Shown here piece after piece: positions 2,322 through 52,149 of a stretch of DNA of 64,000 bases (positions are counted from its first letter, which is position 1; every line of letters begins with the position of its first letter). The notes under the pieces are model-generated. The model saw only the letters and a list, made by a program, of their open reading frames with translations, did no database searches and was not told the origin of the DNA. Location: assembly GCA_000002445.1 (NCBI GenBank), contig CM000207.1:256001-320000 (forward strand), in the 5' to 3' direction. The position numbers were made by a program, and so were the translations under genes. The DNA is from Trypanosoma brucei. Lineage: Eukaryota.

Positions 2322-2419
2322 TTTTTTCCGTATTTAAAGAATTTTTTCTAAAACTTTGCTATTTGATATATTTTAATACCTAAATTCAGCCGAGATTTTT
2401 TTGTTGTTTGTAAAAATTC

Positions 2420-2940: not shown

Positions 2941-3136
2941 TCTAGCCACCAGGATCAGACATCTGGTGAAAAACAAGAATGAAGGACTGCCAGCTTGTGG
3001 CCCTTGTAAATGTGGTTGGATAACTTTCACAGACAAAGAAGGCAAACTTCCCAAACCTGAGTGACTCTCTTTCAGTATCCTTGTCAATAAAAAATTGGCT
3101 CTAAGTATGGCTGCTGATTTTATGGATTTGGTATGA
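2940..3136 (+). pseudogene. VSG: Orphan VSG C-terminal-domain fragment with its own 3'UTR
   Basis: Translation ...CGPCKCGWITFTDKEGKLPKPE*LSFSILVNKKLALSMAADFMDLV* resembles the CTD ends at 45100-45227 and 54720-54852. 16-mer variant tttgatatgttttaacac at ~3231-3248. Confidence 0.65.
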
Positions 3137-4994: not shown

Positions 4995-6452
4995 ATGACG
5001 TCAAAGCGTGCAGTCAGCTTACTATTACTGGCACTCGCAAGTGCGAGCAGCAGCTCAGCTTCCCATGTTGCTGTTAAGTCAGAGCTATGGAAGCCGCAGT
5101 GCGAGCTCGCCAAAGAGCTAAGGAAGACGGCTGGTATAACCATCTCAAAACTAAGCGCAAAGCTAACGGCCATCGACAACCTAAACAAGATGAGCATGCG
5201 ACTTCTCCTATTCGGCCAACGAACTTCGCCTCTTGACAACCAGGTCACAGCCCTCGCGTTAGCACTGGCAGCTCAAAAGAAAGCAGCAAAGATCCAATCA
5301 ACCGTGTCGGACAGTGTGAAAACAGGATTACTTGCAACGCAGTACAGCGGCGAGTTAGCAGGCGGAATTGTGTCGGCTGTACATTTTCTAAAGCACGCGA
5401 GTGACGGCGCCCATTACTGCCTCAACAGCAACGGAAAAAAAGGAGACGGCAGACCCGCTGTGGACACCACAGGCTGTGCCACCCTAACAGCAACAGAGGT
5501 TTCAACCGAAACAGGGTTCAACAAAGGAGACATCAACGACGACGGTTTTGTGAAACTAACAGCCCTAACCACCACTGACGGCGCAGGGCAAACAGGGACA
5601 TGCGGTGTGTTTGAAACCGCAAGCGGATCGGGGAGCACAACAGCCGGAATACAGATAAGCGCAGGGGCAAAAGTCCACCTGGCATTCGGAGCAATTGAAG
5701 GCACGACATCGCAGCAGCCCACTCGACCGGCGCTAAACAAGTTCGAAGGCGCAAACCTGGAAGCTGAACAAACATTCTTCGGAAAAGCCCACAAAAGCCT
5801 TAAAGCTCTAACTTTAGACACAACGGAAAATGCCCTGGAAGATCCAAAAGCCATGCTCAAACAACTAGCCACGGAAGCAGAAGCGATGGAAGCCCTGTAC
5901 ACGGTACTGAGCGGAGCTTCGCCCAACAAGAAGCCAACAGAGTTTTCAGCACAAAACCAGCAACTAAAAATCAGATACTTTGGCGCCGACGGCGAAAAAA
6001 CTGAGAAACTATGGGAACAGATAACCGCTGGAAAAACTATAGGAGCCGGGGAGGACCCACACAAGTTCAGTAATCTAAGTGAAGTAAGCACAGCAGATGA
6101 CCTTTCCAAGGCACTTTTTTTCTACACGGCCGCCACCCTAACAGCGACCCGCGAGCTCAAAAGTGAAAATAGTAGGCTGAAAGAAACCACCGCAAAAGCT
6201 GAAAAAACACAAGAACAAATTTGCAATGCAATACAAAACGAAAAAGATTGCGGTAATAATGAAAACTGCAAATACGACAAAGACAAAACTGAAGGACCAA
6301 AATGCATATTAAGCGACAAGGGCAAAAAAGCAGCAGAAAAAGCAAACCAAGAACCAGGAGGGAAAGATGGCAAAACAACCACAAACACCACAGGAAGCAA
6401 TTCTTTTGTCATTAACAAGGCCCCTCTTTTGCTTGCAGTTTTTCTACTATGA
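4995..6452 (+). CDS. VSG: Apparently intact VSG (VSG2). A possible alternative upstream ATG at 4947 would add 16 aa.
   Basis: Uninterrupted ORF (track 4947-6452, 501 aa). The MTSKRAVSLLLLALASASSSSAS signal peptide starts at 4995. Cys-rich CTD (EQICNAIQNEKDCGNNENCKYDKDKTEGPKCIL) and canonical GPI signal GSNSFVINKAPLLLAVFLL*. 70-bp repeats lie 1.3 kb upstream. Confidence 0.85.
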   Translation: MTSKRAVSLLLLALASASSSSASHVAVKSELWKPQCELAKELRKTAGITISKLSAKLTAIDNLNKMSMRLLLFGQRTSPLDNQVTALALALAAQKKAAKIQSTVSDSVKTGLLATQYSGELAGGIVSAVHFLKHASDGAHYCLNSNGKKGDGRPAVDTTGCATLTATEVSTETGFNKGDINDDGFVKLTALTTTDGAGQTGTCGVFETASGSGSTTAGIQISAGAKVHLAFGAIEGTTSQQPTRPALNKFEGANLEAEQTFFGKAHKSLKALTLDTTENALEDPKAMLKQLATEAEAMEALYTVLSGASPNKKPTEFSAQNQQLKIRYFGADGEKTEKLWEQITAGKTIGAGEDPHKFSNLSEVSTADDLSKALFFYTAATLTATRELKSENSRLKETTAKAEKTQEQICNAIQNEKDCGNNENCKYDKDKTEGPKCILSDKGKKAAEKANQEPGGKDGKTTTNTTGSNSFVINKAPLLLAVFLL

Positions 6453-6749
6453 TTAAAATTATTAAAAGAATTTTTCTAAATATAATGAAATTTATGAAAT
6501 TAACTGTTTCGAAAGAGCTAGCTAATATTTACCCAAATTTGATATACTATAGCGCTTGTGATGGAAACGTGAAAATTAGTAAGAGTTTTGAAAAAATAAA
6601 AAAAATTGAGATTTTAGTAAATATCTATGATGGTGGTCTATCTGTGTAAACCTATTAGGGAAATTGAGTGAGAAAAATGAGTGATATTATAATTTGTTTA
6701 TTTAATTCTTTCATTATTTTATGCATATTAGTTATGTTTACAATTATAA

Positions 6750-6890
6750 AAATAATAATAGTTATGATAATGATGATAGAAGAGTGTTGTGAATGTGTAT
6801 ATATACGAATATTATAATAAGAGCAGTAGTAATAATAATAATAATGATATTAGGAATGTGTTGTGAGTGTTTATACGCGGATGCTAGAAT
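6750..6890 (+). repeat. 70-bp repeat block (about 2 units) upstream of VSG3
   Basis: gatagaagagtgttgtgaatgtgtatatatacgaatattataataagagcagtagtaataataataataatgatattaggaatgtgttgtgagtgtttatacgcgg. Confidence 0.85.
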
Positions 6891-7703
6891 AAAATTAATA
6901 GAAAGTGCTGGAATGGCGCCATAATAAAAGCACTTACAACAAGGGAAAGATTTCAATTGAGGTAATGGATGAAGATTGGAAAAGGGAGCACGGGGAAAAT
7001 TATTATAGGAATGAAAAAAATACAATGAGAGAGAGACAGAGATAGAGTGTGCGCAGATTCAAGCACAAAAATAGTGATTGTCGTTAGTGTATGCAACAAG
7101 ATGGAGGAAGAGAGAATCAAGTGCAGTGGCCAAAGAAGTTGCGATGTTTTTCACAGCGGTAAAAAACAGAAGATTAAAACTAAAGAAACAGAAATATAGA
7201 ATAGAACAAGAGAGTGTGTGAAATTACAGCACAGATAAAAAGAATACAAGAGGAGAGTATTTGCGGTAAATAACTCAAAGATGTATAAATGCAACACCAG
7301 AAATGGTTGACACTGTGGTTTTTAATGTGATGGCGCCACCGGCCGTTTAGTAGCAAGTTAACGAAAGTATGTTTATCCATAGAAAAAGTATGTCCTTTCA
7401 GTTTATCAGAAAGCTTCATGGCAAGACAGGGATAACTTTGTAGGTGGAAAACAAAGGTTGACCAGAAACTGTGAACGGATGCAGATCGGAGCTTTCTTCC
7501 AGCAATCACCACGAAGGTGGCCCGCGAGCACGGCGACGCGCACAAGCGGTAGAATCCATGGTCCGCAGCACTTGAGACAAGCGTATTCAGCTGTTTTTTC
7601 TTATCTACCACTCAAAACTGGCACTAATTGTAACCCCAGTTGTCATCAACGCCTTTAACTGAGCGACATCCAAGTGATTTAAGCCAACGTAGTTACAGGA
7701 TCA

Positions 7704-9239: not shown

Positions 9240-9494
9240 GGATTTTAAGAATTCTTGCATGATTTTATGAAACTCATGAAATTTCCTAAAAATACTAAAA
9301 TATAATATTTTGATAAAATTTGATATATTATAACACTTTTTGGTGAAAATGTGGAAATTGTTGAAAAATATAAAATTTTTGTATGACAGTGCGCTATGTG
9401 TGCAAAGTGGTAAAGTAATATCGTGTGAAAACAAAGTGCTATTCTAATAAACTTCTAACTTTGTTTACCTTTGTTTTCTGTGCATTAGGGTTAT

Positions 9495-9545
9495 ACTAAT
9501 AGCAACAACAACAATAATAATAATAGGAGAGTGTTGTGCTTTAAA
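9495..9545 (+). repeat. Partial 70-bp repeat unit
   Basis: aatagcaacaacaacaataataataataggagagtgttgtgctttaaac (TAA-rich + GAGAGTGTTGTG core, truncated). Confidence 0.6.
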
Positions 9546-9989
9546 CTTCACTCAAAAATGTATAGAATATGCAGCAGAGATTATCACACAGCTAACAACA
9601 GAAATGCCTCAGAAAATCATTCTAATCTGAGGAACTCAAGGCTAGCGAATGATTGTGGCAGTTTTCACGCAAACGTGATAAACTTATTATTATATCTGAA
9701 TTAATGAGTGTAACTAACTAGTGTAATTCCCGTAACAATTCATAGATACGAATTATCAAAGCATTGAGGGGCGGGCACATATGGCTATTATAACCTCTAA
9801 AAACAAAAACCATACATGTATACAGAACTATAAGCTTAAAATACTGAGCAAACACATTGTGAAAGATATATCACAACTTACATATACATAATTATATATG
9901 GAAGAATAATAGAAACTAAATTAACTTTTTTCTTAAGGTTTCTAAGTTTTCTTATAAGATCTCAAATTTTGTTAGTATGTTATGAAATG

Positions 9990-10946
9990 AAATTTGGTAT
10001 TGCGGGAACATTACTATTACTGTTGCTATTACATTTAGTGTGTATGCGCTGTATACATCCCAAATGATAAAATAAATTGCACAACAAAAGTAACAGAGAA
10101 TATTCTAAAGAGGCCAAGAGTGTTTGTGGTTGTAGTGTAATCTCATGGAACTCAAGGATGATGTAGATTCATACTGAGTGCGAAACTAAGCAATATTGAA
10201 ATTATTACAGTTGTGATGGGAGGTTTGTATAGTTATGTTAAAAGACCTAAATAAGTTATGGAGTTTTTACAGAAGCAGAATGCAAGTGATGAGGACATTT
10301 TAATAAGTGTTGATGGTCTGATGTTATTGTTACTGATCAACAAAAGTATGATAATTATGAGAATGCTGTGGAATATTTTATACAATATACAGTATCTAAT
10401 GAGGATAAGTTTAGTGAAGAAGATATAGTAAAAGAGAAGCATATTTCCCCTACTCTATTTATGTCAACAGCTGAGTATTATGAACCTCAGTTAGACTTAA
10501 TTTTAAACTCAGAGCACAGAGAGCATATGGAGAGGTGCGCGTGGTTTTTCAAAGTCTCTTACTTGGCAGAGGACCAAAGAAACCTAACGCACTTACTTAA
10601 GTGGCCTATAACTCAAAAAGCATACTTGAATGGAGGTGGTATAATAGGAAGAGTTTGGGCATTCAGAAAGTTTTAGAAAGCGTTTGATGAAATACTTAAA
10701 ATGACGGATGAGTGGTTGTCAGAACAGAGCATTTATAAGCCGTTACTTCTTTGGAGTGTGTACAAAGAAACTAATATAGGCACGAGACTTCTTTTACCAA
10801 GAGGCTCTATTGGATTAGATTATGAGGAGCGTTACTTTTCCATACCAGTAAGTGGCCCAATTGGGCAAGCTGCATTCCTTCATCTCGCAGGAAACGCCTT
10901 TTCTTGGAGGGAAAGGGCAAAGGAAATTATGACAAACTTGACTTAG
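9990..10946 (+). pseudogene. Glycosyltransferase-like (Fringe/GT31-type motifs) ESAG-like pseudogene, copy A. Paralogue of 46620-47575; possibly the ESAG3-type family common in VSG arrays, but the family assignment is uncertain.
   Basis: ORFs 10368-10676 and 10701-10946 plus upstream frames give ...DEDILISVDGSDVIVTD... (DxD-like) and AYLNGGGIIGRVWAF (GGxG..R-like). About 75-80% nt identity by eye to 46620-47575, including the 5' flank (catttagtgtgt(g)tatgc(g)ctgtat...). Broken by stops and frameshifts. Confidence 0.5.
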
Positions 10947-11343
10947 TATGACAAATATAAAAGTAAAAAAATTAGGAGTCATAATCTAGGGCAACTTCAA
11001 ACTTATGCAGTGTCTGGAGAGAAATTGAATTTTGAATATGAAAGTATTTGCGGAAATGCATTTAAGGAAGGGGATTTTTTTAAGGCTAAGAAAATATAAT
11101 CATAATTAAACCGCCTTCCAAGCAGATAATAATCAATGCAGCCAGGGAAACAAAGCACCATAAGAATTAAAATGGTTAAACAGTCCACAAGAAGAAGAAA
11201 CAAACAACTTTGCACACCACCTCAGTGGCAAGAAATACACAAAATAAGGGTCAACAAGAAAAAGCAAGGCAACATATTAGTCATAAAAACACAAAGGAAA
11301 CTTGCACAAAAACTATCTACACAGCCACACAAACACCAAGCAA

Positions 11344-12801
11344 ATGTACATTCAGGCTTCTGTGGTCTTTTCAGCGCTAATGTTGAAGCTGCTAAGCGCC
11401 AGCATCTGTACGGCCGAAAAGATTACGGACGCCAATGCTGTTTCGACACTAACCACAACGTGCGACGCAGCACAGTTGCTTCAAGCAACAGCAGCACATT
11501 ACGAAGCCAAAGTAACCGCAGCAGCAAGCGTCGCGGCCTCCAACTCGCTGCTTCTCAGTCAATGGGCATTAGCAGCCGCGGCAACGCAAGGAAAGGAACA
11601 AAAAGCATTCGCCCTTCTTCAGGCGCACGCCAACAAGGGGCTCCGTACGGCGGCAAAAGCACTAGAAGCAAACATCGTACAGATCCTCAAGTTCAAAACG
11701 GTAGTGTCAGCCAAAATAGGGATTCTGGCACATCATGCCGCCAGCAAGGCAGGAGAACAACCCGCAGACAAGAAACAGACCGACACCACATTCGACAACA
11801 CTCCAAGCAGCGGCGGCAACAAAGGCGTCGTCAACGACTACCAGATCAAGCCGGAGAATATATGCACGCAAGACCAAAAAGGCGCCATCGGCAGCGGAAA
11901 AGACACTCTGCCGACCCCACTCAAAAAATCGGCTCCACTTACACCGGATACTGCACTAACGAAACTAAAGCTATCAACAGGAATTCAGATAGCTTGCACA
12001 GGAACAAGCCCTCAGTGGAAGTCAAGCGCCAATGAGCTAGGCTGCAGCAGCACAGGCAGCACGGCATTGCTTGGCAACGTGCTAAAAGCACAACTATTCG
12101 AAGCAGACACGGCAGCGGCAGAGCAACTGACAACAAACGAAGACGGCAGCGGCGACTGCAAATCCGATTACCCCGAAAAAGTTAGCTACTAGCCAAGCAA
12201 CGCAGAGGTAGCAAATGCTCTGTGCCAGGCAAGGAAGAAAATACAACCGATGCCAACAGACCTAAAAGACACAACGCTAGCGATGTTAAAAGCGGATCCA
12301 GATTTCAGGAAGCTAATTAGGCAGACCATCCAAGAAAAGGCGCCTGACACTAGCAGCGTGGACAAAGAAATAGACGATATATACGAAACAGACGCTACTG
12401 CTTTCAAAGACAAATTCTTAACAAAAATAGGCCAGCGAACGGCAAAAGTATGGGAAAGCGGCAAACTAAAAGACAAAAAATACTCGGAACTATCTTCACC
12501 TGAACAGCTAGCAGCAGCGCATGCACATGCCGCACAGCAACGCCTGTTTGACGAACAAGTAAAAGAAAAGAAACTAGCACCCAAACCAAAGGAAATGGAC
12601 TGTAAAAACAAGGTTAAGGCTGATTGTAATGGTGAGTGCAAATGGGAAGGAACTAATGATAAAGGTGAGTGCAAAGCTAAAGGTGGGGAAGACGGAGTGA
12701 AAGCGGAAGGAAAAGATGGGAAAGCCACAAACACCACAGGAAGCAATTCATTTGTCATTAATAAGGCTCCTCTACAGCTTGAGTTTTTGGTTCTAGTATA
12801 A
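11344..12801 (+). pseudogene. VSG: VSG pseudogene (VSG4) with a single in-frame TAG at 12190-12192
   Basis: ORF 11302-12192 (signal peptide MYIQASVVFSALMLKLLSASICTAEK from 11344) and ORF 12250-12801 are in the same frame, separated only by ...KVSY*PSNAEVANAL.... The C-terminus ...CKNKVKADCNGECKWEGTNDKGECKA...GKATNTTGSNSFVINKAPLQLEFLVLV* is a GPI signal. 16-mer tatttgatatattttaacacc at ~12836. Confidence 0.8.
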
Positions 12802-12859
12802 TTTTTTTCCTCTAAACTTCCTTTAAGAACTTTTCTATTTGATATATTTTAACACCTAA

Positions 12860-13640
12860 AAATACAACCGAGAAATTATTATTGTTGGCTTCCTGCACGT
12901 GTAAATTTTTTTATAGCTAAAAATTTTCTCTTTTTTTTTTGTTTTTTTGTCTAGCAAACAAAAAAGCTAAAAAGGGGGTTAGAGAGGGTTCTCCGGCTCA
13001 GGATCAGTCTTATCGTTATGGTTATTTGGGTTAGGGTTAATTTTTCTCTAACTGTTTTTTTATTTAATTGTTTTTTCTTCTTTTTTCTTTTTTTTCACAA
13101 TACGTTGCTAATTTTTTAATTTTTTTAAAGTGATGCAGCGGCCGTTTTTTTATGCGGACCCTAACCCTCCTCCCCCCCCAGCCGAGCAGCGGACTTTTTT
13201 TTTCCACCCCCGCCGCCAACTGATTTTGTTTTTTTTCCATCCGCGGCGTCGCCACGACTTGTTTTTTTTTTACGCTTAAATTTTTTTAAAGACTTTTTGA
13301 TTTATTATTTTCACCGCTTAATTTTTTTTAAGCGGCAGCAGGCACTTGATTTCCTCCCTCCTCCCATTCCTTTTAGCTTTTGAAAATTTTTAAATTTTAT
13401 TTTCATTTGTAGCTTTGTTAAATATATTTGTAACGGCGTCCCGGTTTTTTTAAAAAGCAGTTGGCCACCTTATTCGGAAACCAGCCATCTTCAATTAATT
13501 TTTTTCCTATATTCGCTATCAGTAAGCCAGCGATGCCATCAACGCCCATTTTGCCGTTTTGAATTTCAGCCCTACGACTAACGAAAGGGATCTCTTTAGA
13601 AGCTAACAGCAGAGGAACAGAATAGATGCAAAGCTGTCAC
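12860..13640. repeat. Telomere-derived, T-rich block downstream of VSG4 (copy 2 of the recurring module). Degenerate G-strand TTAGGG at ~12975-13040 and C-strand-like CCCTAACCCTCCTCCCCCC at ~13158-13188.
   Basis: gggttagagagggttctcc...ttatttgggttagggttaattttt then gtgatgcagcggccgtttttttatgcggaccctaaccctcctcccccccagccgagcagcgg; long T runs. Confidence 0.7.
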
Positions 13641-13931
13641 GAGAAAACACAAAGAAGGATGCGCAGCTGCCGGCTGCCACTATGATGACAACAAAAAAAA
13701 TGCAACCCTAAACAAGGAGTAGAAACCACAGCAGCAGGATCAGGAAAGACACCAAAATATGGAGCAGCTGCAGCCGGATGTGCAACGCATAAATATAAAG
13801 CCGCTTCTGCGGTTGACAAAACAGTCGGTAAAAAAAGTTGTGCATTTAGAAATAGTAAATATAGTGAAGACGACAAGGACATAAAAAAGTGTCGAAATAG
13901 TAGTTTTCTACTAGAAAAAAGATGGCCCTGA
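13640..13931 (+). pseudogene. VSG: Orphan VSG C-terminal-domain fragment
   Basis: Frame gives ...GSGKTPKYGAAAAGCATHKYKAASAVDKTVGKKSCAFRNSKYSEDDKDIKKCRNSSFLLEKRWP*. There is no N-terminal domain. 16-mer-like tctatattttaacatttc at ~13998. Confidence 0.65.
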
Positions 13932-14159
13932 TTGCTGTTTTTTTTATGAATTTACTATTTTAATGATTTTTATAATTTACAAGAACTTTCTATATTTTAA
14001 CATTTCTTAATTAAATTGTGAAGGTTAGTAAAAAAATTTTGTATCGTACTGGCCTTTATATACAAAGTAGCGAGGTGATAGTGCGTTAAAAATTAATGCT
14101 ATTTTAATTTCAATTTATCCTTTTATTTTCATTATTTTATCAATATTTAAGAAATACTA

Positions 14160-17246: not shown

Positions 17247-17499
17247 CACTTTTAAGATTTATTGACAAAACCTTTTTTTCTTAATTTTATAAAATTTATG
17301 AGACTTGCTATAATTGCTCAAATTTGACATGTTTCAACAAATTTGTAACAAAAAACTAGCATACTTTAAAAAACAAAAAGAATGTAATTTTTGTAGGAAA
17401 ATTAACTATGGTTGTAAAGTGATATGATGATAGAGTAGAAAAATTCATTTCAGAAATTTTTCTAATAACGTTTATGTCATGGATATTAGTGAGGGTTAT

Positions 17500-17575
17500 C
17501 AATAGTAATAGTAATGACAATAATGATTATGATAGGAAAGTTGTGAATTTGTATTTAATAGCATTACAATGTGGT
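17500..17575 (+). repeat. Single 70-bp repeat unit
   Basis: aatagtaatagtaatgacaataatgattatgataggaaagttgtgaatttgtatttaatagcattacaatg. Confidence 0.7.
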
Positions 17576-18470: not shown

Positions 18471-19587
18471 ATGAAGCATATAGAAAATATTTATGCAACA
18501 GTGAGTTGTTTATCTTTTGTTGTTATGGGGATTAGTTTTTGTGTGTCACTGCACAGCCTCTTTGAAGATGATCTCATTTCGCTAGAAGTTGTTGAAAATA
18601 AGTATATGCAATTTGTTTCGAAGGATATGAGGAACATTTGTAAAACTGAAAATTATTTGGTTGTAGCTGGAATACCTTCATTAGATAATGATGAAAGGTT
18701 TAGAAGAAGGAATCTACAGAGAGATACATGTTGGAGTTACCCTGAAGTGGGAAGGAATTCAAATAATTTCAGTGTAAAGTTGCTTATAATTTATGTTATT
18801 TCACCTCATATAAATTACAATTGTGAGCTGAGAGAAATTGTTGGAGAAGAGGATATATAAATCAGGATATTATTATTTTACCTGTTTTCAATGTGAATCC
18901 AACAACGAATAAAAAAGTGGGAGAGGCAGGTAATTGGAGATGGGAGGCGGAGATCACGATGAGTAGAAAAACATATTTGTGGTTCAAATTTGAAGTTGAA
19001 ATATTTAAACCGTCTAATCCCTATGTAATTAAAGCAGATGATGACATATTTGTGAGGGTGCCATTATATCTAAAATATCGGTAAGTGCTCCCACGAGAGA
19101 AATTAAATGTGGGAAGAGCGGTTGGATATTATAAAGATTTTAGTGACGAAATTACATTGCATACTATTGGTTATTCACCCACACTATCTAAGGATGTGGC
19201 TAAGGAAATTGTAAATTATAAACATTTGAGAAATTAGTAAAAGCACCAATAAAATACAGACAATTTGAAAAACATATAGATTTTAAAGCCCTCAATGAAG
19301 ATATTAAGGTGGGGGAAGTTATAATAAATGAATTGAAATTGGAGGAGTTATTAACAGTTTATATGCAGGAATGCCGTTATGTAATGTATATCAAAAGACC
19401 TCTCTTTCATTTTATCAGCCAACACCTAGATGTGGTCATTTTCCATCAAATTGCATTGCAGGACTATATACATCTACAAAGGATCAACCCTGTTCGTCGT
19501 AATGGCCAACCAAAATCCCAGATCACTACAGTATCTGAAAGACACTGGGCTACGTTTGACTGCCCAGAAGATGCTTTACAGGAGTAG
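18471..19587 (+). pseudogene. GT31-like (beta-1,3-glycosyltransferase family) pseudogene split over three frames; a distinct family from the 10233/46836 copies
   Basis: ORF 18471-18860 has the N-terminal signal/anchor MKHIENIYATVSCLSFVVMGISFCVSLHS and NYLVVAGIPSLDNDERFRRRNLQRDTCWSY (compare the GT31 motif xLVxSxxxxxxRRxAIRxTW). ORF 18893-19084 has YVIKADDDIFVRVPLYL (DDD motif). ORF 19309-19587 continues in a third frame. Confidence 0.5.
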
Positions 19588-19732: not shown

Positions 19733-21317
19733 ATGTACAAACAGCTATTAATCTTGCTATCTCTGTCCTTTAAACTGACTCAAAGTGCCGACGATGTAAC
19801 TGTGGGCGGCAACAGGCAAGCGTACAGCGCGGTCTGCGGAATTGTAGTTCTAGCGGAAGGAAATATCAATGTGCCACATGAACCAGCGATTACGTCTGAC
19901 GACTACGACTTCGTACAGCAGCTTAATTTAACGTCTTTTAGCGATGAATGGCAAAAGATGTTTTACACAAACGATACTCCTAAAAAAGTCTACAACACGG
20001 CTGACGAGGCGGGAGAAGGCAAAAAGGGTTATGAAGAATACTGGGGAGACCGGAAGAAGGCAGCAGAACAACTACTGACAACGCCGAAGCCTCCAAGACT
20101 CGAAGCGACTGGCATGAGCAAGCTAACGCCAGTACAGAGAAAACTTTCACACAGCGAGATTGCAAAACTTGCTGGGAAAGCGATGCAAATAAAGAAACAG
20201 ATCGACGGACTAGACGCTGGTAAAGTAAAAAGCGCGTCAGAGGCAGCCATACTTAAGACGGCTGTATACGGCAAAAAAGCAGCCACAGCCGACTCAACCA
20301 CACGCGTAACGGCGTTCGGGGCAGACCCCGAAAACACCGCCAGAGGAACCGTGTGCGAGGCAGGTAGCGGCAACCAAAGGGTCAAAACAGTAGCAGCCGC
20401 TCTAGCATGTCTGTGCATGCAAGCCGCCGGAGGAGGCAGTGGCAACTGGCAGTCCTCAACATGCACAAAAAAAGCAGACGGCAGAACAGGGTGGGACAGC
20501 GGCAACAGCGCACCTAAAATCGGCGACATACAAACTGCCCTCAAAGCTTGCCACAAGGCCAAAGCCAAGGAGGCGACAGTAGCCGACATTGGCAGCACAA
20601 TCAGTGGTGTGCTGTCACAAATAGAGGCTTCAGACGCCAACGGCTACATAGGCCATTTTATTCAAACAGGCTGCGACGGCAGCAAAGGCAATGCGGTGTG
20701 CGTCAAAATTACAGGCTACACAGCGGACCCAAAAGGTGCGATCGCAAAAGTGCCATGGATCCGCAGCATTCAGGAACTCACCACGGAACTAAAAAAACAA
20801 GAAGCCGTACAGAAACCGCACAAACTAAACCAAATGCTCAAGCTAGAGGCAGAAGCTGCAAACGCCATCATTGCAGAAGCAAAAGAAACGTCAGCAATGG
20901 TGCTAAGCATTCCGGCGGCAACCACAATCGGTAAGGAAAACACTGCAGCGGCAAATTGCAACAAACACAATAACTCCAAAACCGACTGCGAAAATACAGG
21001 AAAATGCAAATGGGAAGGGACAACCGATAAAGATGACCCATGCGAAGTAGATGAAAGTAAAGTTACAACTCAGAATACACACTAGGAGCAGGAGATGAAG
21101 CAGGGGGAGCGACAGATAAGTGTGTAGCCGCAAAACACCTGAGGACTGTGCAAAAGTGGCAGGAACCAAACGTGAAGGCAAAAATGCCGTTTGCAGGTTG
21201 ATCAATTATATTGATGAAAAAGGCAACTTTCAGCCAGCTTTCCGCTCTTCCAGTTTTCTTGTCAATAGGAAATTGGATCTAATGGCTACCAGAATTATGG
21301 GTTTGGAGGAATTCTAG
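19733..21317 (+). pseudogene. VSG: VSG pseudogene (VSG6): body intact to 21085, with the C-terminal GPI segment in another frame
   Basis: ORF 19616-21085 (signal peptide MYKQLLILLSLSFKLTQSADD at 19733) ends ...CKWEGTTDKDDPCEVDESKVTTQNTH*. The CTD end PEDCAKVAGTKREGKNAVCRLINYIDEKGNFQPAFRSSSFLVNRKLDLMATRIMGLEEF* is at 21120-21317 in a different frame, with a degenerate tail. 16-mer gatttggcatattttaacac at ~21412. Confidence 0.8.
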
Positions 21318-21589
21318 TGCTTTAAGGATTCTAAGGATATTTTCTCAATTTTATGAAATATTATAAAATTTTCTATTCTGAAAGAATTTACTATAATCAA
21401 TAAATTTTCTAAGATTTGGCATATTTTAACACTTTCTGATGAACATGTGGAAATTAGTGAAATTTTTTTAAAATTTAAAAATACAAAATTTTGTATGAAA
21501 GCAGCTGATATGTGTAACATAATAAGGTGATGGGATATTTAAAAATTACTGGTATTATAAAATTTCGACATTTTATTTTTTTATTTGAT

Positions 21590-21695
21590 TTAATAATAAA
21601 AAATAAATAAAAATAATGATGATGATGATAAGACAGGTTTGTGAGGGTGCATATGCTAATATTATAATTTAATAATAAGTATGATGATGTTGAAA
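21590..21695 (+). repeat. 70-bp repeat (about 1.5 divergent units)
   Basis: taataataaaaaataaataaaaataatgatgatgatgataagacaggtttgtgagggtgcatatgctaatattataatttaataataagtatgatgatg. Confidence 0.7.
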
Positions 21696-33830: not shown

Positions 33831-33833
33831 AAA

Positions 33834-45227: not shown

Positions 45228-45519
45228 TGAGAGTTTAAGCACTCTAAGAATTATTTCTCAATTTTTTGAAATATTGCTATTTAGAAACAATTTACTATAA
45301 TTAATAAATTTGCCACTATGTGACATATTTTAACACCATTTAGAAGAAAAAAGAAATTTAATGAAATTTAAGGGCTAGAAAATGTAAAAAATGTTTTTAT
45401 GAAAGTGTCATGCTGTTGTTAAGCAGTAGGATATTAGGGTATTAAAAAATAGTGACATTTTAACATGCTTTGTTTTGTTTTCTAATTATGGACATCAAGT
45501 AGGTTTATAATAAAATCAA

Positions 45520-45698
45520 TAGTTAAGAACATTATAATGATAATAATATAAGTGATATTGATAGCGGAGTGTTGTGAGTGTGTATATACTAATATTATAA
45601 TAAGAGCAGTAATAATAATAATAATGATACTAATAATAGAAGAGTGTTGTGAGTGTGTATATACGAATATTATAATAAGAGCAGTAAAAATAATAATA

Positions 45699-45729
<31 letters not shown>

Positions 45730-45875
45730 TAATAATAGGAGAGTGTTGTGAGTGTGTGTATATGCGAATATTATAATAAGAGCAGTAAAAATAATAATAA
45801 TAATGATAATAATAATAATAGAAGAGTGTTGTGAGTGTGTGTATATGCGAATATTATAATGAGAGTGCTGCGGTC
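45520..45875 (+). repeat. Large 70-bp repeat array (about 5 units)
   Basis: Five successive ...gagtgttgtgagtgtgtatatac(t/g)aatattataataagagcagtaa(t/a)aataataataat(gat)... units are readable at 45545-45870. Confidence 0.9.
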
Positions 45876-46619: not shown

Positions 46620-47575
46620 CCTAAAATTATAAAGGTATATTAGGCAATAAAGTTTCGTATGTTGAGAAACTTAACTTTACTGTTTCTATCACATTTAGTG
46701 TGTGTATGCTCTGTATCTATTCAATACAATGAAGTAAATTACATAACAAATATAACAGATAATAATACTAAGAAACCAAGAGCATTTGTGGTTGTGGTTC
46801 AAACTCATGCAACACAAGGATAGTGTAGCCTAACATTGAGAGCCAAACTAAAGCATGTTGAAATTATTAAAATTGTGATAGGAGGTTTGTATAGCCATGT
46901 TAAGAGGCCTAGATGGGTTATGCAATATTTAGAAAATCAGAATTCAAGTGATGAGGATATTGTAATTCATTTGGATGGATCTGATGTTATAGTTAGTGAT
47001 AGAAATAAGTATGAGAGTGCTGTGGAATATTTTATACAAAAAAGTGAATAAACTGTGGAAAAATTCAGTGAGGAGGTTATTTTCAAGGAGAAGCATATTT
47101 CCCCTATTATATTCATGACAACATCCGAGTGTTATCCGCCTAAGTTGGATTTGTTTATGAACTCAGATCACAAGGAGCATGTACAGAGATGTTATTGGTT
47201 TTTTAATGTGGGCTACAGAAAAGAGGAGGATAAGAAGCTACAGCATCTACTAATATAACCTGCAAGTGGAAAATATTGCCTTAGTGGTGGTTTGATAGCC
47301 AGAGTTTGGGCATTTAAAAAATTTGAATATGCTTTTGGAGAGTTACTAAAGGGAAGTGAGGAGTGGTGGTCATACAAGAGTATTTCAAAGCCTCTGCTAA
47401 TATGGAGTGCTACACAAGAAAAGCTGTTGGACAGAGATTTGTTTTGAAGAGAGGAATGATTGGATTGGATTATGAAGAGAGATTCTTTACTATTCCAAAT
47501 AGTGGTGAGATTTTGAATGCACCATTTATTCATTCACTTACCTGGGCAAGCAATTTCGTAGAAAGAAAAGAATGA
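46620..47575 (+). pseudogene. Glycosyltransferase-like (Fringe/GT31-type motifs) ESAG-like pseudogene, copy B (paralogue of 9990-10946)
   Basis: ...PRAFVVVVQTHATQG*...RAKLKHVEIIKIVIGGLYSHV...NSSDEDIVIHLDGSDVIVSD (beta-strand + DxD), CLSGGLIARVWAF (GGxG..R-like), IGLDYEERFFTIPNSGEILNAPFIHSLTWASNFVERKE. Interrupted by stops; nucleotide homology to copy A extends into the 5' flank. Confidence 0.5.
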
Positions 47576-47944
47576 AGACGATTGTAAAAAATCTTACTTG
47601 GAATAATGAATTGCTAATGTAAAGTCAAAGGTTGAAGACGTAAAAACCACTACAAACATTTTTTGATAACTTTGAAAAAGTGAGCGTAAGATATAACTTT
47701 CGTTGTAGAAATAGACTGTAAAAGGTGCTCTGTTCGTGCCTGAAAAATAGACAGAAAGCAACAAGAAAGTGTGAGTACAGTAATTGGAAACAGAGAATTC
47801 CTGATTTTCGTTATTAACAAAACTGAGTTATTTAAACGCACACAACCTCCAACGGGAGTCAGTCGTGTCTTATTCCAATTTCACTGCGCTTCAAGAGAAA
47901 GGCACCCGAGCTGCAACTTTAAAAGAAATATTCAAAACTGCGCA

Positions 47945-49510
47945 ATGCCACAGATCTCAAGGTGTTCAAGGCACCAATTAACCGTAGCAGCATTGTCGCT
48001 AGTCTTCTCGAATTTAGCAAGAGGCGCGACCACAAACGGCGTAAACGCACCAGCGTACGCAACTTTGTGTGACATTTACAATCTTAAGGATGCTAAACCA
48101 CCAACAGTATGGGCAAAGCAGTTTGATGACGCCCAAAGTTTAATAACGGCCATTTACAATCTGAACATTAGTACCGCAAGTGATACGTGGCTAACAAACA
48201 AAGACGGCGAGTTCGCAAATATCTCCGACAGCGCCGAGAGAGACGGGCAGTTGAAGGAGTGGATTAAGCAAGTCGAAGCGACAACAGCCGCAGACACGAC
48301 CACGGGTAAACCAGGGCCGTACAGCAAAGTACCCAACAACCCCTTCAAACCGATCGCAAACAAGCAAATTGACGCTTTGTACCGGCAAGCGCAAACGAAA
48401 AAAGGAGCCTTCGAGCAAGCTAAGAAAGAAGTAACAGAAGCACACACCAAAGCGAACCGTAAGATTCTGGACGCCATCTACGGCACCGGTAAATCGGCTT
48501 TCGACACTACAGCTTTCACAACCACAAAACAGCAAATGTGTGGCAACGGCAACAACGGCCACGCGAATGTCGGCAAAAACATACTAAACGACATGATCTG
48601 CCTTTGCACGGCGGAAGGCAGCCAATCGGACAAGGCATGCGGAGAGAAAGACATGGGCGAAGTGCAAAGCGACGCGACAGGGGCCGAAGCCGCAGCAGCA
48701 AACCTCGAGGGGGCGTGTACCAAAAAAGAAACAAAACAAGAGCTCTCAGAGGCCCTAATACAAGCGAAGCTAGCAGCGTTTTTCGCACACGTCGGTGCAA
48801 TACCAGACAGCCAAACTGACGCCTCGGTACGATTCGTACTAGGCCAGGCCCAGACAGGCGGCTGTGTAGGATCAAGCAACAAGCAATGCGTAAACTACAA
48901 AGCGCAATTAACTACAGGGGGCGGCGGAATTCCATGGGTCAACCAACTGGAGGAAGCGGCCTCGATTTTACGCAGGGCATCAATAGCATACGCCGAAGCA
49001 GCCCACATCGATGCCGAACTAAAAAGTCTGAAGGCCCAGGCCGCCAGCTTACGCAATGCAGCAGTCATAGGCATTGCTCTGCCTGATATGGCCTCAACAG
49101 AACGCCGCCTCGATAGCCCCAAAGAACTTAGTTAAAGTGCAGAACAAGCTTGTAACAAACTAAATAGTGAACAAAAGTGCAATGCTGATCCGAAATGCAG
49201 TTACGAAACAGAAAGCGATGGCACCAAAAAGTGCAAATATAATGCGACAAAAGCGAAAGAAAAAGGAGTTTCTGTAACACAAGCTCAAACAGGAGGAGGA
49301 ACAACTGCACCCTCAGATAGGTGCACAAAACACAAAGACAAAACGAGCTGTGAAAAGGAAAATGAGGGCCAAAAACCGGCCGAAATTCCGAAAGATAAAA
49401 AATCTGTTTGTGGTTGGATTGAGGAGAAATGCAAAGATTCTTCTATTCTAGCAACTAAAAAATTTGCCCTCAGCATGGTTTCTGCTGCATTTGTGGCCTT
49501 GCTTTTTTAA
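47945..49510 (+). pseudogene. VSG: VSG pseudogene (VSG12) with a single in-frame TAA at 49133-49135
   Basis: ORF 47771-49135 (signal peptide MPQISRCSRHQLTVAALSLVFSNLARGATTNG from 47945). The same frame continues after ...PKELS* as SAEQACNKLNSEQKCNADPKCSYETESDGTKKCKYNATKAKEKGVSV...CGWIEEKCKDSSILATKKFALSMVSAAFVALLF*. 16-mer cttatatattttaacacc at ~49565. Confidence 0.8.
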
Positions 49511-49714: not shown

Positions 49715-49855
49715 GGTAGGTAGGAGGGGGGGGTAGTTAGGTTAGTTAGGGGGGTTAGGTAGGATTAGGATTAGGATTAGGGTTAGGGTTATGGTTACTC
49801 GGTTAGGGTTAGGGTTAGGGTTAGGGTTAGGATTAGGGTTACTCGGTTAGGGTTA
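49715..49855 (+). repeat. Interstitial telomeric hexamer tract (TTAGGG)n, about 140 bp, G-strand on +, with degenerate units (taggta, ttagga, ttactcgg)
   Basis: ggtaggtaggagggggggtagttaggttagttaggggggttaggtaggattaggattaggattagggttagggttatggttactcggttagggttagggttagggttagggttaggattagggttactcggttagggtt. Confidence 0.9.
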
Positions 49856-51290
49856 ATTTTTCTTTTTTTTTTCTAATCCATTTTTTTTATAAAGTGATGC
49901 AGCGGCTCCTCCTTTTTTATGTGCACCGCCGCAGCCGTTACGATTTATTATGTTTTCATATACCAGGTTGCTTGTTTTTTAATTTTTCAACTTTTTATTA
50001 GTGATGCAGCGACTCCTTTTTTTTTCACTGACGTTTAATTTATTTTTTTTCATATTAGTGATGCAGCGGCTGTTTTATTATGTGGACCCTAACCCTCCTC
50101 CCCCCCACCCCAGACGCCCCCGCGTACGCACCTTTTTTTTTCGTGTTTTTTTGTCTTCTTGATTTTTCGAATTTTTTTTCAATGTTTTATTCGAACTTAT
50201 AATTTTTTTGATTCACTCACAATTTTTAATTATTTTTTTTTAGCCGTGCAGCGGCTGTTTTATTATGCGGACCCTAACCCTCCTCCCCCCCCGCACACCC
50301 GCGCACCCGCACAGTTTTTTTAATTTTAATTTTTTTTACGTTTTGGAATGCGCGAATTTTTTTAGTGCGTTTTTCACAAAGCCTTTTTTACCCTTTTTTT
50401 TGTATTACGTGATTTTATTTTTTTAATTTTCCGATTTTTTGATTTTAGTTTTTTTACGCCACACCCGCGACTTTTTTTGTCTTTTTGGTTTTTCGAATTT
50501 TTTTTCGTTCATTCTTTTGGCTTTTATAATTTTTTTGTTTTTATTTTTTGATTCTATTTTGCATTTGAATTTTTAAGTTTTTTTATTTTTAATTTTTTAA
50601 TTTATTGTTTTTTGCTTTTTAAGTTTTTGACATTTTTTGTTTTTGATTCCTTTTTTTGTCATCGACCGACACAAATTTTCTGTCACCGCCCCTTTTTGTT
50701 CGGCACGGCAGATGCGGTGTTTCGGGTTCAGGTGTTTCGGGTTAGGGGTTAGGGTTAGGGTTACTCGGTTAGGGTTACTTTTTTTCCTTTTCACTTTTTT
50801 TAATTTTTTTTTATGATGCAGCGATTTTTTTCGCAGCCCTGCCGGCAATCCAATTTATTATTTTTATTGTTTCTATTTTACAACACTTTGCTAATTTAAT
50901 TTTTAACTTTTTCTTTAGCGATGCGGCGGCTATTTTATTATGCGGACCCTAACCCTCTCCCCCGCGCGCACCTCCGTTTTTTTAATTTTTTTTGCCGCAT
51001 TTTTCAGCCCCTGTTTTCGAGTTTCTTTCAAATTTTTTTGTTTTTCAACCCAGCGATGCAGCGGCTGTTTTTTCTTCATAAACCCTGACACTTATGCGCG
51101 CTACAGCCATCCTCGCTTAAATTTTTTAAATATTCAGCACCTACCCGTGCAGTGGTGTTTGATACTTTTTTGCTTTTTTGAATTTCAGCTCTGCGTTTTG
51201 CGCTGCACGCAGCTTTTCTTTTTACGCTGATGCGTGTCAGTTTCGCTGCAGGAAACGATTTTCCTTTCAAGAGGCGCTAACAAAAAACTC
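49856..51290. repeat. T-rich subtelomere-like satellite block. At least 7 irregular units carry (G/A)TGATGCAGCGGCTG-TTTTATTATG(C/T)GGACCCTAACCCTCCTCCCCCC, so C-strand telomere-like motifs lie inverted relative to the flanking G-strand tracts. A second G-strand tract is at 50730-50782.
   Basis: gatgcagcgg(c/a) motifs at ~49893, 49992, 50058, 50243 (variant gccgtgcagcggctg), 50815, 50920 (variant gcgatgcggcggct) and 51053; ggaccctaaccct(c)ctcccccc at ~50086, 50270 and 50943; gggttaggggttagggttagggttactcggttagggtt at 50730-50782; long poly-T runs throughout. Confidence 0.8.
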
Positions 51291-51904
51291 TTAATATTTA
51301 GAAGTGGCAGAATATGGCGCTCGGCAGCTAAAACCAGCCGACGTAGCAGCTTGGACCGGTCGTGGCGCGGCACAGCACCCTAGCCAAAGCAGCCAGAGCT
51401 CTCAAACAATCAGCTGAAGCAGCAGCAGGGCAATGCAGGTGCATCACCATGCCCCAACAGATTAGGCGGCAGATGTAAAACATCTTAATGCTGGGTTCCA
51501 TAAGCACCACTTCCGAAAATACACTGCAAAAACAAAGCAGTAAGCAAACAGTAGAGCAAAAAAATAAATGCAAACTGAAAAACACAACTGCAGGAGCATG
51601 ACCAGAAGCTGACTGCGACAATGATAACACCACAAAGGAATGCAAACCTAAACCAGGATCAGAAAACGCAGCAGCAGGAACAGGAGATGGAGCAAAAAGT
51701 AAGTCTCAACAGTATAAGGACACAGATAGTTGCAAGAATGCACCAGAAGAGAAAAATCTAGCTAAAAATGCAGTCTGTGGTCGGATTTATTTTATTGATG
51801 GTCAAGGAAACGTTGAAGCTTAATGCTGTGATAAAAGTTTTTTTGCAAAAACGAAATTTTCTCTGATCGCCGCTGCTTATATGAGTTTGTTAGCAATTAA
51901 ATGA
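51290..51904 (+). pseudogene. VSG: Orphan VSG C-terminal-domain fragment with a conserved leader (paralogue of 44620-45227)
   Basis: aatatttagaagtggcagaatatggcgctcggcagctaaaaccagccgacgtagcagc... is homologous to 44595-44680. Translation ...ECKPKPGSENAAAGTGDGAKSKSQQYKDTDSCKNAPEEKNLAKNAVCGRIYFIDGQGNVEA*CCDKSFFAKTKFSLIAAAYMSLLAIK*. 16-mer aaatttgatatattttaacac at ~52003. Confidence 0.7.
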
Positions 51905-52149
51905 TTTTATTACTCTAGTTATTTAATGATTATCGCTCAATTACACGAAAAACAAGAAATTTATAAATTTTTTTATTTTGGGAGAATTTACTAAAAATTC
52001 GAAAATTTGATATATTTTAACACTTTTTTGACAAAATGTACTAATTTTTGAAATTATCAAAAGCTGGTATGATAGTAGGTAATGGGCGTAGTGCCATGCA
52101 CTGATAGTGTGTAAAAATTAAGTACTATTATAATTTGTTTTATTTATTA

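What the first reader, a model, noticed from the sequence alone, without database searches (positions are those of the whole stretch)
9495..12801. Expression-site-like micro-architecture repeated in a silent array: 70-bp repeat, then a glycosyltransferase-like pseudogene, then a VSG (three instances)
Three times the order is 70-bp repeat → GT-like pseudogene → VSG: 9495→10233-10946→11344; 17500→18471-19587→19733; 45520-45875→46836-47575→47945. This places a non-VSG (ESAG-like) pseudogene in the position of the 'co-transposed region' of bloodstream expression sites. Two of the three VSGs (VSG4, VSG12) are additionally followed by the telomere-derived module. Together this looks like whole telomeric/expression-site-like cassettes (70 bp ... 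VSG ... telomere) that were internalised and then decayed, rather than simple tandem VSG duplication.
Basis: partly seen in the sequence, partly recalled or inferred. Interest (0 to 1): 0.5.

Follow-up and report, generated by a model that had tools for sequence, protein, structure and literature searches.

The report
Dead glycosyltransferase genes upstream of silent VSGs
Three silent trypanosome coat-protein (VSG) cassettes each carry a decayed glycosyltransferase gene between their 70-bp repeat and the VSG: two are ESAG3 pseudogenes and one belongs to an unrelated family, an arrangement that is real but largely expected from known subtelomere biology.

Summary
The three pseudogenes are not one kind.

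- **Instances 1 and 3** (9987-11099 and 46647-~47751) are full-length ESAG3 pseudogenes, 60-74% identical to bloodstream expression-site ESAG3.

The order alone is not beyond chance. The gap from a VSG 3' end to the next 70-bp repeat is only about 135-175 bp, so the interval upstream of the VSG is nearly the only room available (P = 0.2-0.5 for 3 of 3).

The non-trivial features also hold in four more copies from three other Trypanosoma brucei-group loci:
- same strand as the VSG in 7 of 7 copies;
- full length in all but one (5'-truncated);
- ending 145-470 bp before the VSG start codon;
- past purifying selection (dN/dS 0.2-0.45).

ESAG3 pseudogenes 3' of the 70-bp repeats are already published for Lister 427 BES7 and BES15. 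The "internalised expression-site cassette" reading is partly supported for the two ESAG3 cassettes only. Mostly known biology; modest interest.

The parts
9485..9538 (+). Cassette 1: a single truncated (half) 70-bp repeat, TRR run plus GGAGAGTGTTGTG, 148 bp after the previous VSG's 16-mer
   Evidence: Read directly; blastn matches to the other 70-bp repeats; spacing
9987..11099 (+). ESAG3 pseudogene, full length (aligned to residues 1-368 of the ESAG3 profile). It has 5 in-frame stops and at least one frameshift near 10317. The DXXD motif, G215-G216, E244/Q245 and H297 codons are retained.
   Evidence: tblastn; hmmsearch E = 1.2e-142; 60% identity to expression-site ESAG3 versus 27-32% to the next relatives; motif and stop positions
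11344..12801 (+). VSG4, an A-type VSG pseudogene with a single in-frame TAG at 12190-12192. Its start codon lies 244 bp after the ESAG3 pseudogene.
   Evidence: ORFs; Pfam Trypan_glycop hit on the C-terminal ORF; sequence
12840..12855 (+). Conserved VSG 3'-UTR 16-mer, TGATATATTTTAACAC (exact match)
12975..14138 (+). Telomere-like module. It holds a degenerate TTAGGG tract (12975-13043), T-rich DNA with a GATGCAGCGGC...GGACCCTAACCCTCC unit, then a VSG C-terminal fragment with its own 16-mer-like element. One of four paralogous modules in the window.
17495..17560 (+). Cassette 2: a single degenerate 70-bp repeat
   Evidence: Sequence; weak blastn matches to other 70-bp repeats
18471..19587 (+). 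[quoted passage not shown] It is near full length, with 2 frameshifts and in-frame stops. The DDD motif (KADDDIF) is retained. It is not an ESAG.
   Evidence: phmmer E = 2e-60 to P0002 and 46-50% identity to TREU927 glycosyltransferases; tblastn; hmmsearch; frames
19733..21432 (+). B-type VSG (pseudo)gene with its 3'-UTR 16-mer-like element at 21417-21432. Its start codon lies 145 bp after the glycosyltransferase pseudogene. No telomere-like tract follows it.
   Evidence: Pfam VSG_B E = 3.5e-53
45506..45870 (+). Cassette 3: about 4.5 tandem 70-bp repeats
46647..47751 (+). ESAG3 pseudogene, essentially full length (the HMM alignment ends at 47715; the 47751 end is estimated). It has 7 in-frame stops plus frameshifts and is 71% identical in DNA to the copy at 9947-10855. 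DXXD, G215-G216 and H297 are retained; E244/Q245 are lost.
   Evidence: blastn; tblastn; hmmsearch E = 4.9e-156; 73-74% identity to expression-site ESAG3
47945..49510 (+). VSG12, a B-type VSG pseudogene with one in-frame stop. Its start codon lies about 193 bp after the ESAG3 pseudogene. It carries a class-B di-cysteine loop, TGGCVGSSNKQCVNY.
   Evidence: Pfam VSG_B E = 3.6e-64; translation
49730..52023 (+). Telomere-like module. It holds about 17 degenerate GGGTTA units (49752-49855), repeated GATGCAGCGGC...CCCTAACCCTCC units, a second TTAGGG tract (50742-50779), and a VSG C-terminal fragment with a 16-mer at 52008.

Best explanation
These are three ordinary silent-array VSG cassettes of a Trypanosoma brucei-group subtelomere. 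In each, the interval between the 70-bp repeat and the VSG (the co-transposed region) is occupied by a dead, once-functional glycosyltransferase gene. The gene points the same way as the VSG and ends 145-245 bp before its start codon. Two are ESAG3 sensu stricto, the GT-A-fold VSG O-glucosyltransferase family. [quoted passage not shown]

**Shown**
- Identity, extent, orientation and inactivating lesions of the three pseudogenes.
- Recurrence of the same order in other T. brucei-group genomes.
- Unrelated VSGs downstream of related pseudogenes.
- Homology between copies confined to the ORF plus about 30-150 bp of 5' flank.
- A purifying-selection signature between copies.

**Inferred**
- The copies were separate working genes in an expressed location. 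They came to lie directly 5' of a VSG inside the 70-bp-bounded recombination unit, and then decayed independently in the untranscribed array.
- Because the 5' limit of VSG gene conversion lies in or near the 70-bp repeats, such a pseudogene travels with its VSG. This links these array cassettes to the ESAG3 pseudogenes published 3' of the 70-bp repeats in BES7 and BES15. The direction of that traffic is unresolved.
- The pseudogenes have no present coding function.
- Their position between the 70-bp repeat and the VSG is dictated by array geometry, not by targeting.
For: **Identity**
- Profile search: P0012, in a cluster of Lister 427 and T. b. gambiense ESAG3 proteins.
- 60-74% identity to expression-site ESAG3 versus 27-32% to the next relatives.
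- Catalytic DXXD, G215-G216 and H297 codons kept, matching the residues named in the ESAG3 preprint.
- Second family: E = 2e-60 to TREU927 UDP-Gal/UDP-GlcNAc glycosyltransferases.
- Dead: 5 and 7 in-frame stops plus frameshifts.

**Recurrence of the order**
- T. b. gambiense L001: ESAG3 pseudogene.
- T. b. equiperdum L002: an ESAG3 pseudogene and a glycosyltransferase pseudogene in consecutive cassettes.
- T. equiperdum L003: glycosyltransferase pseudogene.
- In all 7 copies the strand matches the VSG (P = 0.008). In 6 of 7 the copy sits nearer the VSG than the repeat.

**Independence of the copies**
- Downstream VSGs are unrelated, A-type versus B-type, with no DNA homology.
- Homology between copies stops at the ORF ends.
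- Most stops are private, or use different stop codons at the same tryptophan codon.
- dN/dS is 0.19-0.45 in frame and 0.86-1.53 in the two shifted frames used as a control.

**Geometry**.

**Literature**
- ESAG3 pseudogene 3' of the 70-bp repeats in BES7 and BES15.
- ESAG3 lies in expression sites and throughout subtelomeres, mostly as pseudogenes.
- These glycosyltransferases are frequent in subtelomeres.
- The 5' recombination boundaries map upstream of the co-transposed region.
Against: - The sample is small: 7 copies, and the 4 outside the window were found through similarity to the window copies, so they may not be independent.
- One stop (codon 228, TAG in an identical 15-nt context) is shared by window copy 1 and the T. 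b. equiperdum copy. This hints at some shared history as a pseudogene, or at a gene-conversion patch.
- The purifying-selection signal could also arise from repeated conversion by functional donors.
- The T. b. equiperdum ESAG3 copy abuts an inverted 70-bp repeat and is 5'-truncated, so that one is not a clean instance.
- No direct DNA comparison with BES7 or BES15 was possible.
Confidence: 0.7

Rival explanations
1. One reading: the cassettes (70-bp repeat, ESAG-like gene, VSG, telomere) are whole chromosome-end or expression-site units that were internalised into the array and then decayed.
For: - Two pseudogenes are ESAG3 sensu stricto.
- Both ESAG3-bearing cassettes in the window are followed by degenerate TTAGGG tracts about 175-240 nt after the VSG stop codon. 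This sits at the low end of the 200-1590 nt reported for expression sites.
- BES7 and BES15 have the same 70-bp, ESAG3 pseudogene, VSG, telomere order.
- dN/dS below 1 implies earlier residence in an expressed site.
- Each telomere module ends in a VSG C-terminal fragment joined to the next 70-bp repeat at canonical spacing, as expected for a chromosome end joined to a broken array.
Against: - Instance 2 is not an ESAG and has no telomere tract.
- The modules are paralogous repeats. They also follow two VSGs with no ESAG3 pseudogene in view, so the association has P = 0.066.
- The ESAG3-bearing cassettes in L001 and L002 have no module.
- No promoter or other ESAG remnant is present; the HMM scan covered these two families only.
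- ESAG3 normally lies upstream of the 70-bp repeats.
Confidence: 0.3
2. Pure geometry or chance: the pseudogenes are randomly dispersed subtelomeric debris. They lie between the 70-bp repeat and the VSG only because almost no other non-VSG space exists in an array.
For: - 60-82% of the free space is the 70-bp-to-VSG interval, giving P(3 of 3) = 0.22-0.54.
- Only 3 of 13 cassettes carry a pseudogene, and the other intervals show no ESAG3 or glycosyltransferase remnant.
- ESAG3 and glycosyltransferase pseudogenes are known to be common in subtelomeres.
Against: - 7 of 7 copies are co-oriented with the VSG (P = 0.008).
- 6 of 7 lie in the VSG-proximal third of the free space, leaving a typical intergenic gap of 145-470 bp.
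- All but one (the 5'-truncated L002 copy) are full-length genes rather than fragments.
Confidence: 0.2
3. Functional coupling: the cassettes once carried, and elsewhere may still carry, their own glycosyltransferase gene. Being co-transposed with the VSG into the active expression site, it would tailor that VSG's glycosylation. Alternatively, the ESAG3 pseudogene serves as an extra homology block for recombination with expression-site ESAG3 copies.
For: - Both families glycosylate surface glycoproteins, and ESAG3 O-glucosylates class B VSGs.
- The copies show past purifying selection.
- The only two expression sites with an ESAG3 pseudogene next to the VSG hold VSG3 and VSG11, both reported to be O-glycosylated.
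- Recombination breakpoints coincide with ESAG3 loci in expression sites.
- Some switchers recombine between ESAGs.
Against: - All seven copies examined are dead.
- The VSG after window copy 1 is class A, which is not the O-glucosylated class.
- The class-B loop is present in B-type VSGs without an adjacent ESAG3 too.
- No expression data are available.
Confidence: 0.08

Closest known systems
ESAG3 pseudogene 3' of the 70-bp repeats in Lister 427 bloodstream expression sites BES7 (VSG 427-3) and BES15 (VSG 427-11), Hertz-Fowler et al. 2008 (PMC2567434)
   Same: The same order: 70-bp repeat, ESAG3 pseudogene, VSG, with telomere repeats downstream. In the window, degenerate telomere tracts follow the two ESAG3-bearing cassettes.
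   Different: The window copies lie in an internal silent array with further VSG cassettes on both sides. There is no promoter and there are no other ESAGs. Sequence-level relatedness to the BES7 and BES15 copies could not be tested.
Subtelomeric ESAG3 pseudogenes (Fam53 ESAG3 sensu stricto) of T. brucei, as summarised in PMC6152948
   Same: The same gene lineage (60-74% identity to expression-site ESAG3, about 30% to the more distant relatives), the same subtelomeric location and the same pseudogene state.
   Different: The papers I could read give the general location only. They do not give the fixed position and orientation immediately 5' of a VSG inside the 70-bp-bounded cassette.
[quoted passage not shown]
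   Same: Instance 2 is a decayed member, 46-50% identical to TREU927 proteins and with the DDD motif kept. The family is known to be frequent and variable in subtelomeres.
   Different: Here, and in two T. equiperdum / T. b. equiperdum loci, it sits in the co-transposed position of a VSG cassette. This family is not an expression-site gene.
ESAG3-like genes in T. congolense telomeric VSG regions (PMC6152948)
   Same: An ESAG3-family gene next to a telomeric VSG, interpreted as ESAG3 sequences that move between subtelomeric and telomeric regions.
   Different: A different species, no 70-bp repeats, and the genes are not necessarily pseudogenes.

Membership tests
ESAG3 sensu stricto (Fam53) | Full-length sequence homology to expression-site ESAG3 | tested here: met
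   hmmsearch E = 1e-142 and 5e-156 covering profile positions 1-368 and 1-356; profile search hit P0012, whose cluster holds the Lister 427 ESAG3 proteins
ESAG3 sensu stricto (Fam53) | Closer to expression-site ESAG3 than to the divergent GRESAG3-type relatives | tested here: met
   60-74% identity to P0012, P0021 and P0025 versus 27-32% to P0027-P0035
ESAG3 sensu stricto (Fam53) | GT-A catalytic residues: DXXD 110-113, G215-G216, E244/Q245, H297 (preprint 10.64898/2026.01.27.701950) | tested here: met
   All are retained in copy 1. Copy 3 keeps DXXD, GG and H297 but has Y/K at 244/245. The direct Pfam GT_PLOD hit is only sub-threshold, E = 0.02.
ESAG3 sensu stricto (Fam53) | Intact open reading frame (a functional gene) | tested here: not met
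   5 and 7 in-frame stops plus frameshifts: these are pseudogenes
[quoted passage not shown] | Sequence homology to annotated members | tested here: met
   E = 2e-60 to 1e-52 and 46-50% identity to TREU927 proteins P0002-P0005; tblastn covers residues 3-329 of P0004
[quoted passage not shown] | Galactosyl_T (PF01762) domain and DXD motif | tested here: inconclusive
   KADDDIF is retained and the relatives carry PF01762, but the decayed window copy itself gave no Pfam hit
Bloodstream expression site (telomeric cassette) | 70-bp repeats 5' of the VSG | tested here: met
   only a half copy, a single copy and about 4.5 copies, versus 0.2-7.1 kb in expression sites
Bloodstream expression site (telomeric cassette) | Telomere repeats 200-1590 nt downstream of the VSG | tested here: inconclusive
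   Degenerate interstitial TTAGGG tracts lie about 175-240 nt after the stops of VSG4 and VSG12, and none follows the VSG of cassette 2. The tracts belong to a repeated module.
Bloodstream expression site (telomeric cassette) | ESAG array and promoter upstream of the 70-bp repeats | tested here: not met
   Another VSG's 3' end lies immediately upstream of each 70-bp repeat, with a 133-175 bp spacer. No other ESAG3 copy is present. Other ESAG families were not scanned.
Bloodstream expression site (telomeric cassette) | Sequence similarity of the 70-bp-to-VSG interval to known co-transposed regions (BES7, BES15) | not testable with these tools
   Expression-site DNA records are not in any searchable collection. 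Only the published description could be used.
Silent-array VSG cassette | Tandem same-strand units: 70-bp repeat(s), unique upstream interval, VSG (pseudo)gene, conserved 3'-UTR 16-mer | tested here: met
   13 70-bp sites, 13 or more 16-mers, and VSG domains on the + strand

The most novel reading that the evidence does not exclude
VSG cassettes can carry a cognate glycosyltransferase gene in their co-transposed region. Gene conversion would then install both a new VSG and an enzyme that modifies it. The dead ESAG3 and glycosyltransferase copies here would be relics of that coupling, as would those next to the O-glycosylated VSG3 (BES7) and VSG11 (BES15). More generally, the unexplained "unique" co-transposed regions of VSG cassettes could be decayed genes.
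Probability: 0.08. Interest if true: 0.65.

Novelty: already known. Interest (0 to 1): 0.28.

Why it matters
ESAG3 pseudogenes are scattered in VSG arrays, subtelomeric glycosyltransferase pseudogenes are common, and array geometry forces the order.

There is a modest added value. Dead glycosyltransferase genes of two families sit in a fixed orientation and at a fixed spacing directly 5' of VSGs, inside the unit that is copied during antigenic switching, and they carry the mark of past selection. ESAG3 has just been reported to be the VSG O-glucosyltransferase. A genome-wide look at which VSGs have, or had, a glycosyltransferase gene in their co-transposed region is therefore cheap and could be informative. 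It could also explain part of the origin of the unique co-transposed regions, whose rationale is stated in the literature to be unknown.

Tried and rejected
- Pfam on the C-terminal fragments and on the reconstructed second-family copy gave nothing useful.
- Sequence searches of solved structures gave nothing for the ESAG3 copies.
- The first homologue search, with only the C-terminal 209 residues, found just a "hypothetical protein, unlikely". Identity came only after rebuilding three full-length copies and searching with their profile.
- Exact look-ups of two window VSGs and of TREU927 glycosyltransferases P0004 and P0005 found no contigs. The window could not be placed in a genome, and TREU927 contexts could not be sampled.
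- Rfam found nothing in the window.
- Marcello & Barry 2007 is not held.

**Ideas rejected**
- Retroposed cDNA copies. Homology is confined to the ORF, but there is no poly(A) tail and 30-150 bp of 5' flank is shared.
- One dead cassette copied around. The downstream VSGs are unrelated, the lesions are mostly private, and dN/dS is well below 1.
- A strict link between ESAG3 pseudogenes and class B VSGs. VSG4 is class A.
Full report
**Setting**

The window is a Trypanosoma brucei-group silent VSG array.
- Pfam finds A-type and B-type VSG domains in a series of + strand ORFs.
- The VSG 3'-UTR 16-mer TGATATATTTTAACAC occurs 13 times, against 0.03 expected.
- 70-bp repeats occur at 13 sites.
- An ingi-type retroelement lies on the minus strand at about 35.4-40.4 kb.
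- All best protein hits are T. brucei subspecies.

**Checking the observation**

The three orderings exist.
- **Cassette 1:** a truncated half repeat at 9485-9538, a pseudogene at 9987-11099 and the VSG start codon at 11344.
- **Cassette 2:** one degenerate repeat at 17495-17560, a pseudogene at 18471-19587 and the VSG start codon at 19733.
- **Cassette 3:** about 4.5 repeats at 45506-45870, a pseudogene at 46647-~47751 and the VSG start codon at 47945.

A six-frame HMM scan with profiles of both families finds no other copy in the 64 kb.

**What the pseudogenes are**

Copies 1 and 3 are 71% identical in DNA over about 900 bp. A search with the C-terminal fragment found only a T. b. gambiense "hypothetical protein, unlikely". 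I rebuilt three full-length copies across their frameshifts. A profile search with them hit P0012 at E = 4e-186. Its 90% cluster consists of the ESAG3 proteins of Lister 427 expression sites and of T. b. gambiense.

- The window copies are 60% (copy 1) and 73-74% (copy 3) identical to expression-site ESAG3.
- They are only 27-32% identical to the next relatives found by an exhaustive search. They therefore belong to ESAG3 sensu stricto.
- A 2026 preprint reports that ESAG3 is a Mn2+-dependent, GT-A-fold, LH3/PLOD3-like O-glucosyltransferase acting on class B VSGs. It names the residues D110/D113, G215-G216, E244/Q245 and H297.
- Those codons are all kept in copy 1, and all but E244/Q245 in copy 3. 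A weak sub-threshold Pfam GT_PLOD hit agrees. "GT-like" was therefore right.
- Both copies are dead: 5 and 7 in-frame stops plus frameshifts.

Copy 2 is a different family. It matches the T. brucei UDP-Gal/UDP-GlcNAc-dependent glycosyltransferases, whose relatives carry Pfam Galactosyl_T. The match has E = 2e-60 and 46-50% identity. The copy has two frameshifts and in-frame stops but keeps the DDD motif. This family is not an ESAG.

**Is the order more than chance?**

Not on its own. All 13 70-bp repeat sites in the window lie on the VSG-bearing strand, each upstream of the next VSG cassette. The spacer from a VSG's 16-mer to the next repeat is 133-175 bp at 11 junctions. The 70-bp-to-VSG interval, 811-1888 bp in cassettes without a pseudogene, is thus 60-82% of all free space. 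This gives P(3 of 3) = 0.22-0.54.

Other features are not forced. I retrieved the genomic contexts of the nearest database relatives.

| Locus | Source | Layout |
|---|---|---|
| L001 | T. b. gambiense | 70-bp repeat 4477-4640; ESAG3 pseudogene 5501-6585; VSG pseudogene from 6797 |
| L002 | T. b. equiperdum | inverted 70-bp repeat 1829-1946; ESAG3 pseudogene 1991-3050; VSG from 3422 |
| L002 (next cassette) | T. b. equiperdum | 70-bp repeat 5117-5198; glycosyltransferase pseudogene 5947-7046; VSG from 7207 |
| L003 | T. equiperdum | 70-bp repeat 1-30; glycosyltransferase pseudogene 1156-2109; VSG from 2580 |

- All 7 copies are on the VSG strand (P = 0.008).
- All are essentially full length except the L002 ESAG3 copy, which is truncated at about residue 12.
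- 6 of 7 sit in the VSG-proximal third of the free space, leaving 145-470 bp before the start codon.

The caveat is that the sample is small and was found through similarity to the window copies.

**History of the copies**

- The VSGs downstream of related pseudogenes are unrelated. VSG4 is A-type and VSG12 is B-type, and there is no DNA homology outside the generic C-terminus and UTR.
- Homology between copies stops at the ORF ends plus about 30-150 bp of 5' flank.
- Pairwise dN/dS is 0.27-0.45 for ESAG3 and 0.19-0.30 for the second family. The same alignments read in the two shifted frames give 0.86-1.53. The signal is therefore real: the copies diverged largely as working genes and died separately.
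- Stops are mostly private. The stop shared by copies 1 and 3 at W59 uses different stop codons.
- One TAG at codon 228 is shared, in an identical context, by copy 1 and the T. b. equiperdum copy. This may be a conversion patch or partly shared history.
- Silent arrays are not expected to maintain coding sequence. The selection signal therefore suggests earlier residence in an expressed location. This step is inference.

**Comparison with expression sites**

Expression-site DNA could not be searched, so this part rests on Hertz-Fowler et al. 2008 (PMC2567434).
- The canonical order places ESAG3 upstream of the 70-bp repeats.
- BES7 (VSG 427-3) has an "ESAG3 pseudogene 3' of 70-bp repeat", and BES15 (VSG 427-11) has two.

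The micro-architecture therefore has a published counterpart in 2 of 14 expression sites. The 5' boundary of VSG gene conversion maps upstream of the co-transposed region (PMC2900300). An array cassette that holds an ESAG3 pseudogene would carry it into an expression site. The resemblance does not by itself indicate telomere-to-array movement.

**The telomere argument**

Degenerate TTAGGG tracts start about 175-240 nt after the stops of VSG4 and VSG12. This sits at the low end of the 200-1590 nt VSG-to-telomere distance in expression sites. Each tract is followed by GC-rich units that contain an inverted CCCTAACCCT. A VSG C-terminal fragment comes next and joins the following 70-bp repeat at canonical spacing. 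That structure is compatible with a chromosome end joined to a broken array.

Three points weaken the argument.
- The modules are mutually paralogous.
- They occur four times in the window, including after two VSGs with no ESAG3 pseudogene in view. The association has P = 0.066.
- They are absent from the ESAG3-bearing cassettes of L001 and L002.

**Verdict**

The finding is real but composed of known elements.
- The second family is "frequently found in subtelomeric regions" (PMC4288722).
- The ESAG3-pseudogene-in-the-co-transposed-region arrangement is published for expression sites.

The residual interest lies in three things: the regular orientation and spacing, the selection signature, and the coincidence noted in passing below. 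That coincidence suggests a cheap genome-wide test of whether VSG cassettes were ever coupled to their own glycosyltransferase.

Noticed in passing
window ~2490-2715, 12975-14138, 44037-45336, 49730-52023: Four paralogous telomere-like modules. Each has a degenerate TTAGGG tract about 120-150 bp after a VSG 16-mer. T-rich DNA follows, with 1-5 copies of a ~45-nt unit (GATGCAGCGGCTGTTTTATTATGCGGACCCTAACCCTCCTCCCCCC) that contains an inverted CCCTAACCCT. A VSG C-terminal fragment with its own 16-mer comes last and joins the next 70-bp repeat at canonical spacing. The modules look like scars of chromosome ends joined to broken arrays and later duplicated. None occurs in L001-L003.
   Followed up: partly
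literature (PMC2567434 table; bioRxiv 10.64898/2026.01.27.701950), with window 47945-49510: [quoted passage not shown] These are exactly the two expression-site VSGs reported to be O-glycosylated, and ESAG3 is the O-glucosyltransferase. In the data here, VSG12 and the L002 VSG after an ESAG3 pseudogene are class B; VSG12 has the loop TGGCVGSSNKQCVNY. VSG4 is class A, so the link is unproven.
   Followed up: partly
window 16-mer to 70-bp junctions (e.g. 9336-9485, 21432-21591, 54957-55094): The spacer between the VSG 3'-UTR 16-mer and the next 70-bp repeat is tightly constrained to 133-175 bp at 11 of 11 direct junctions. The 70-bp-to-VSG interval varies from 811 to 2172 bp and is not conserved between cassettes.
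   Followed up: yes
window 55700-60500 (+) and 61859-63439 (-): A second, degenerate ingi-like retroelement (endonuclease-, RT- and RNase H-like ORF fragments) lies on the + strand. It is followed by a 526-aa VSG on the minus strand, so the array changes direction near 60-61 kb.
   Followed up: partly
L002 1829-1946 and 1991-3050: In T. b. equiperdum chromosome 9 an inverted 70-bp repeat directly abuts a 5'-truncated ESAG3 pseudogene. This marks an inversion breakpoint at the repeat. The next cassette carries the other glycosyltransferase pseudogene, so both families occupy the same position in consecutive cassettes.
   Followed up: partly
window 10674 and L002 2630: The ESAG3 pseudogenes of window cassette 1 and of T. 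b. equiperdum share a TAG stop at codon 228 in an identical 15-nt context (AAGTTTTAGAAAGCG), although they are only about 70% identical overall. This is either a gene-conversion patch or a lesion older than their divergence.
   Followed up: no
window ~33300-34700 and 40466-40532: The minus-strand ingi element at about 35.4-40.4 kb appears to be inserted into a VSG. A VSG C-terminal piece lies at 40466-40532, just before the 70-bp repeat at 40772.
   Followed up: no
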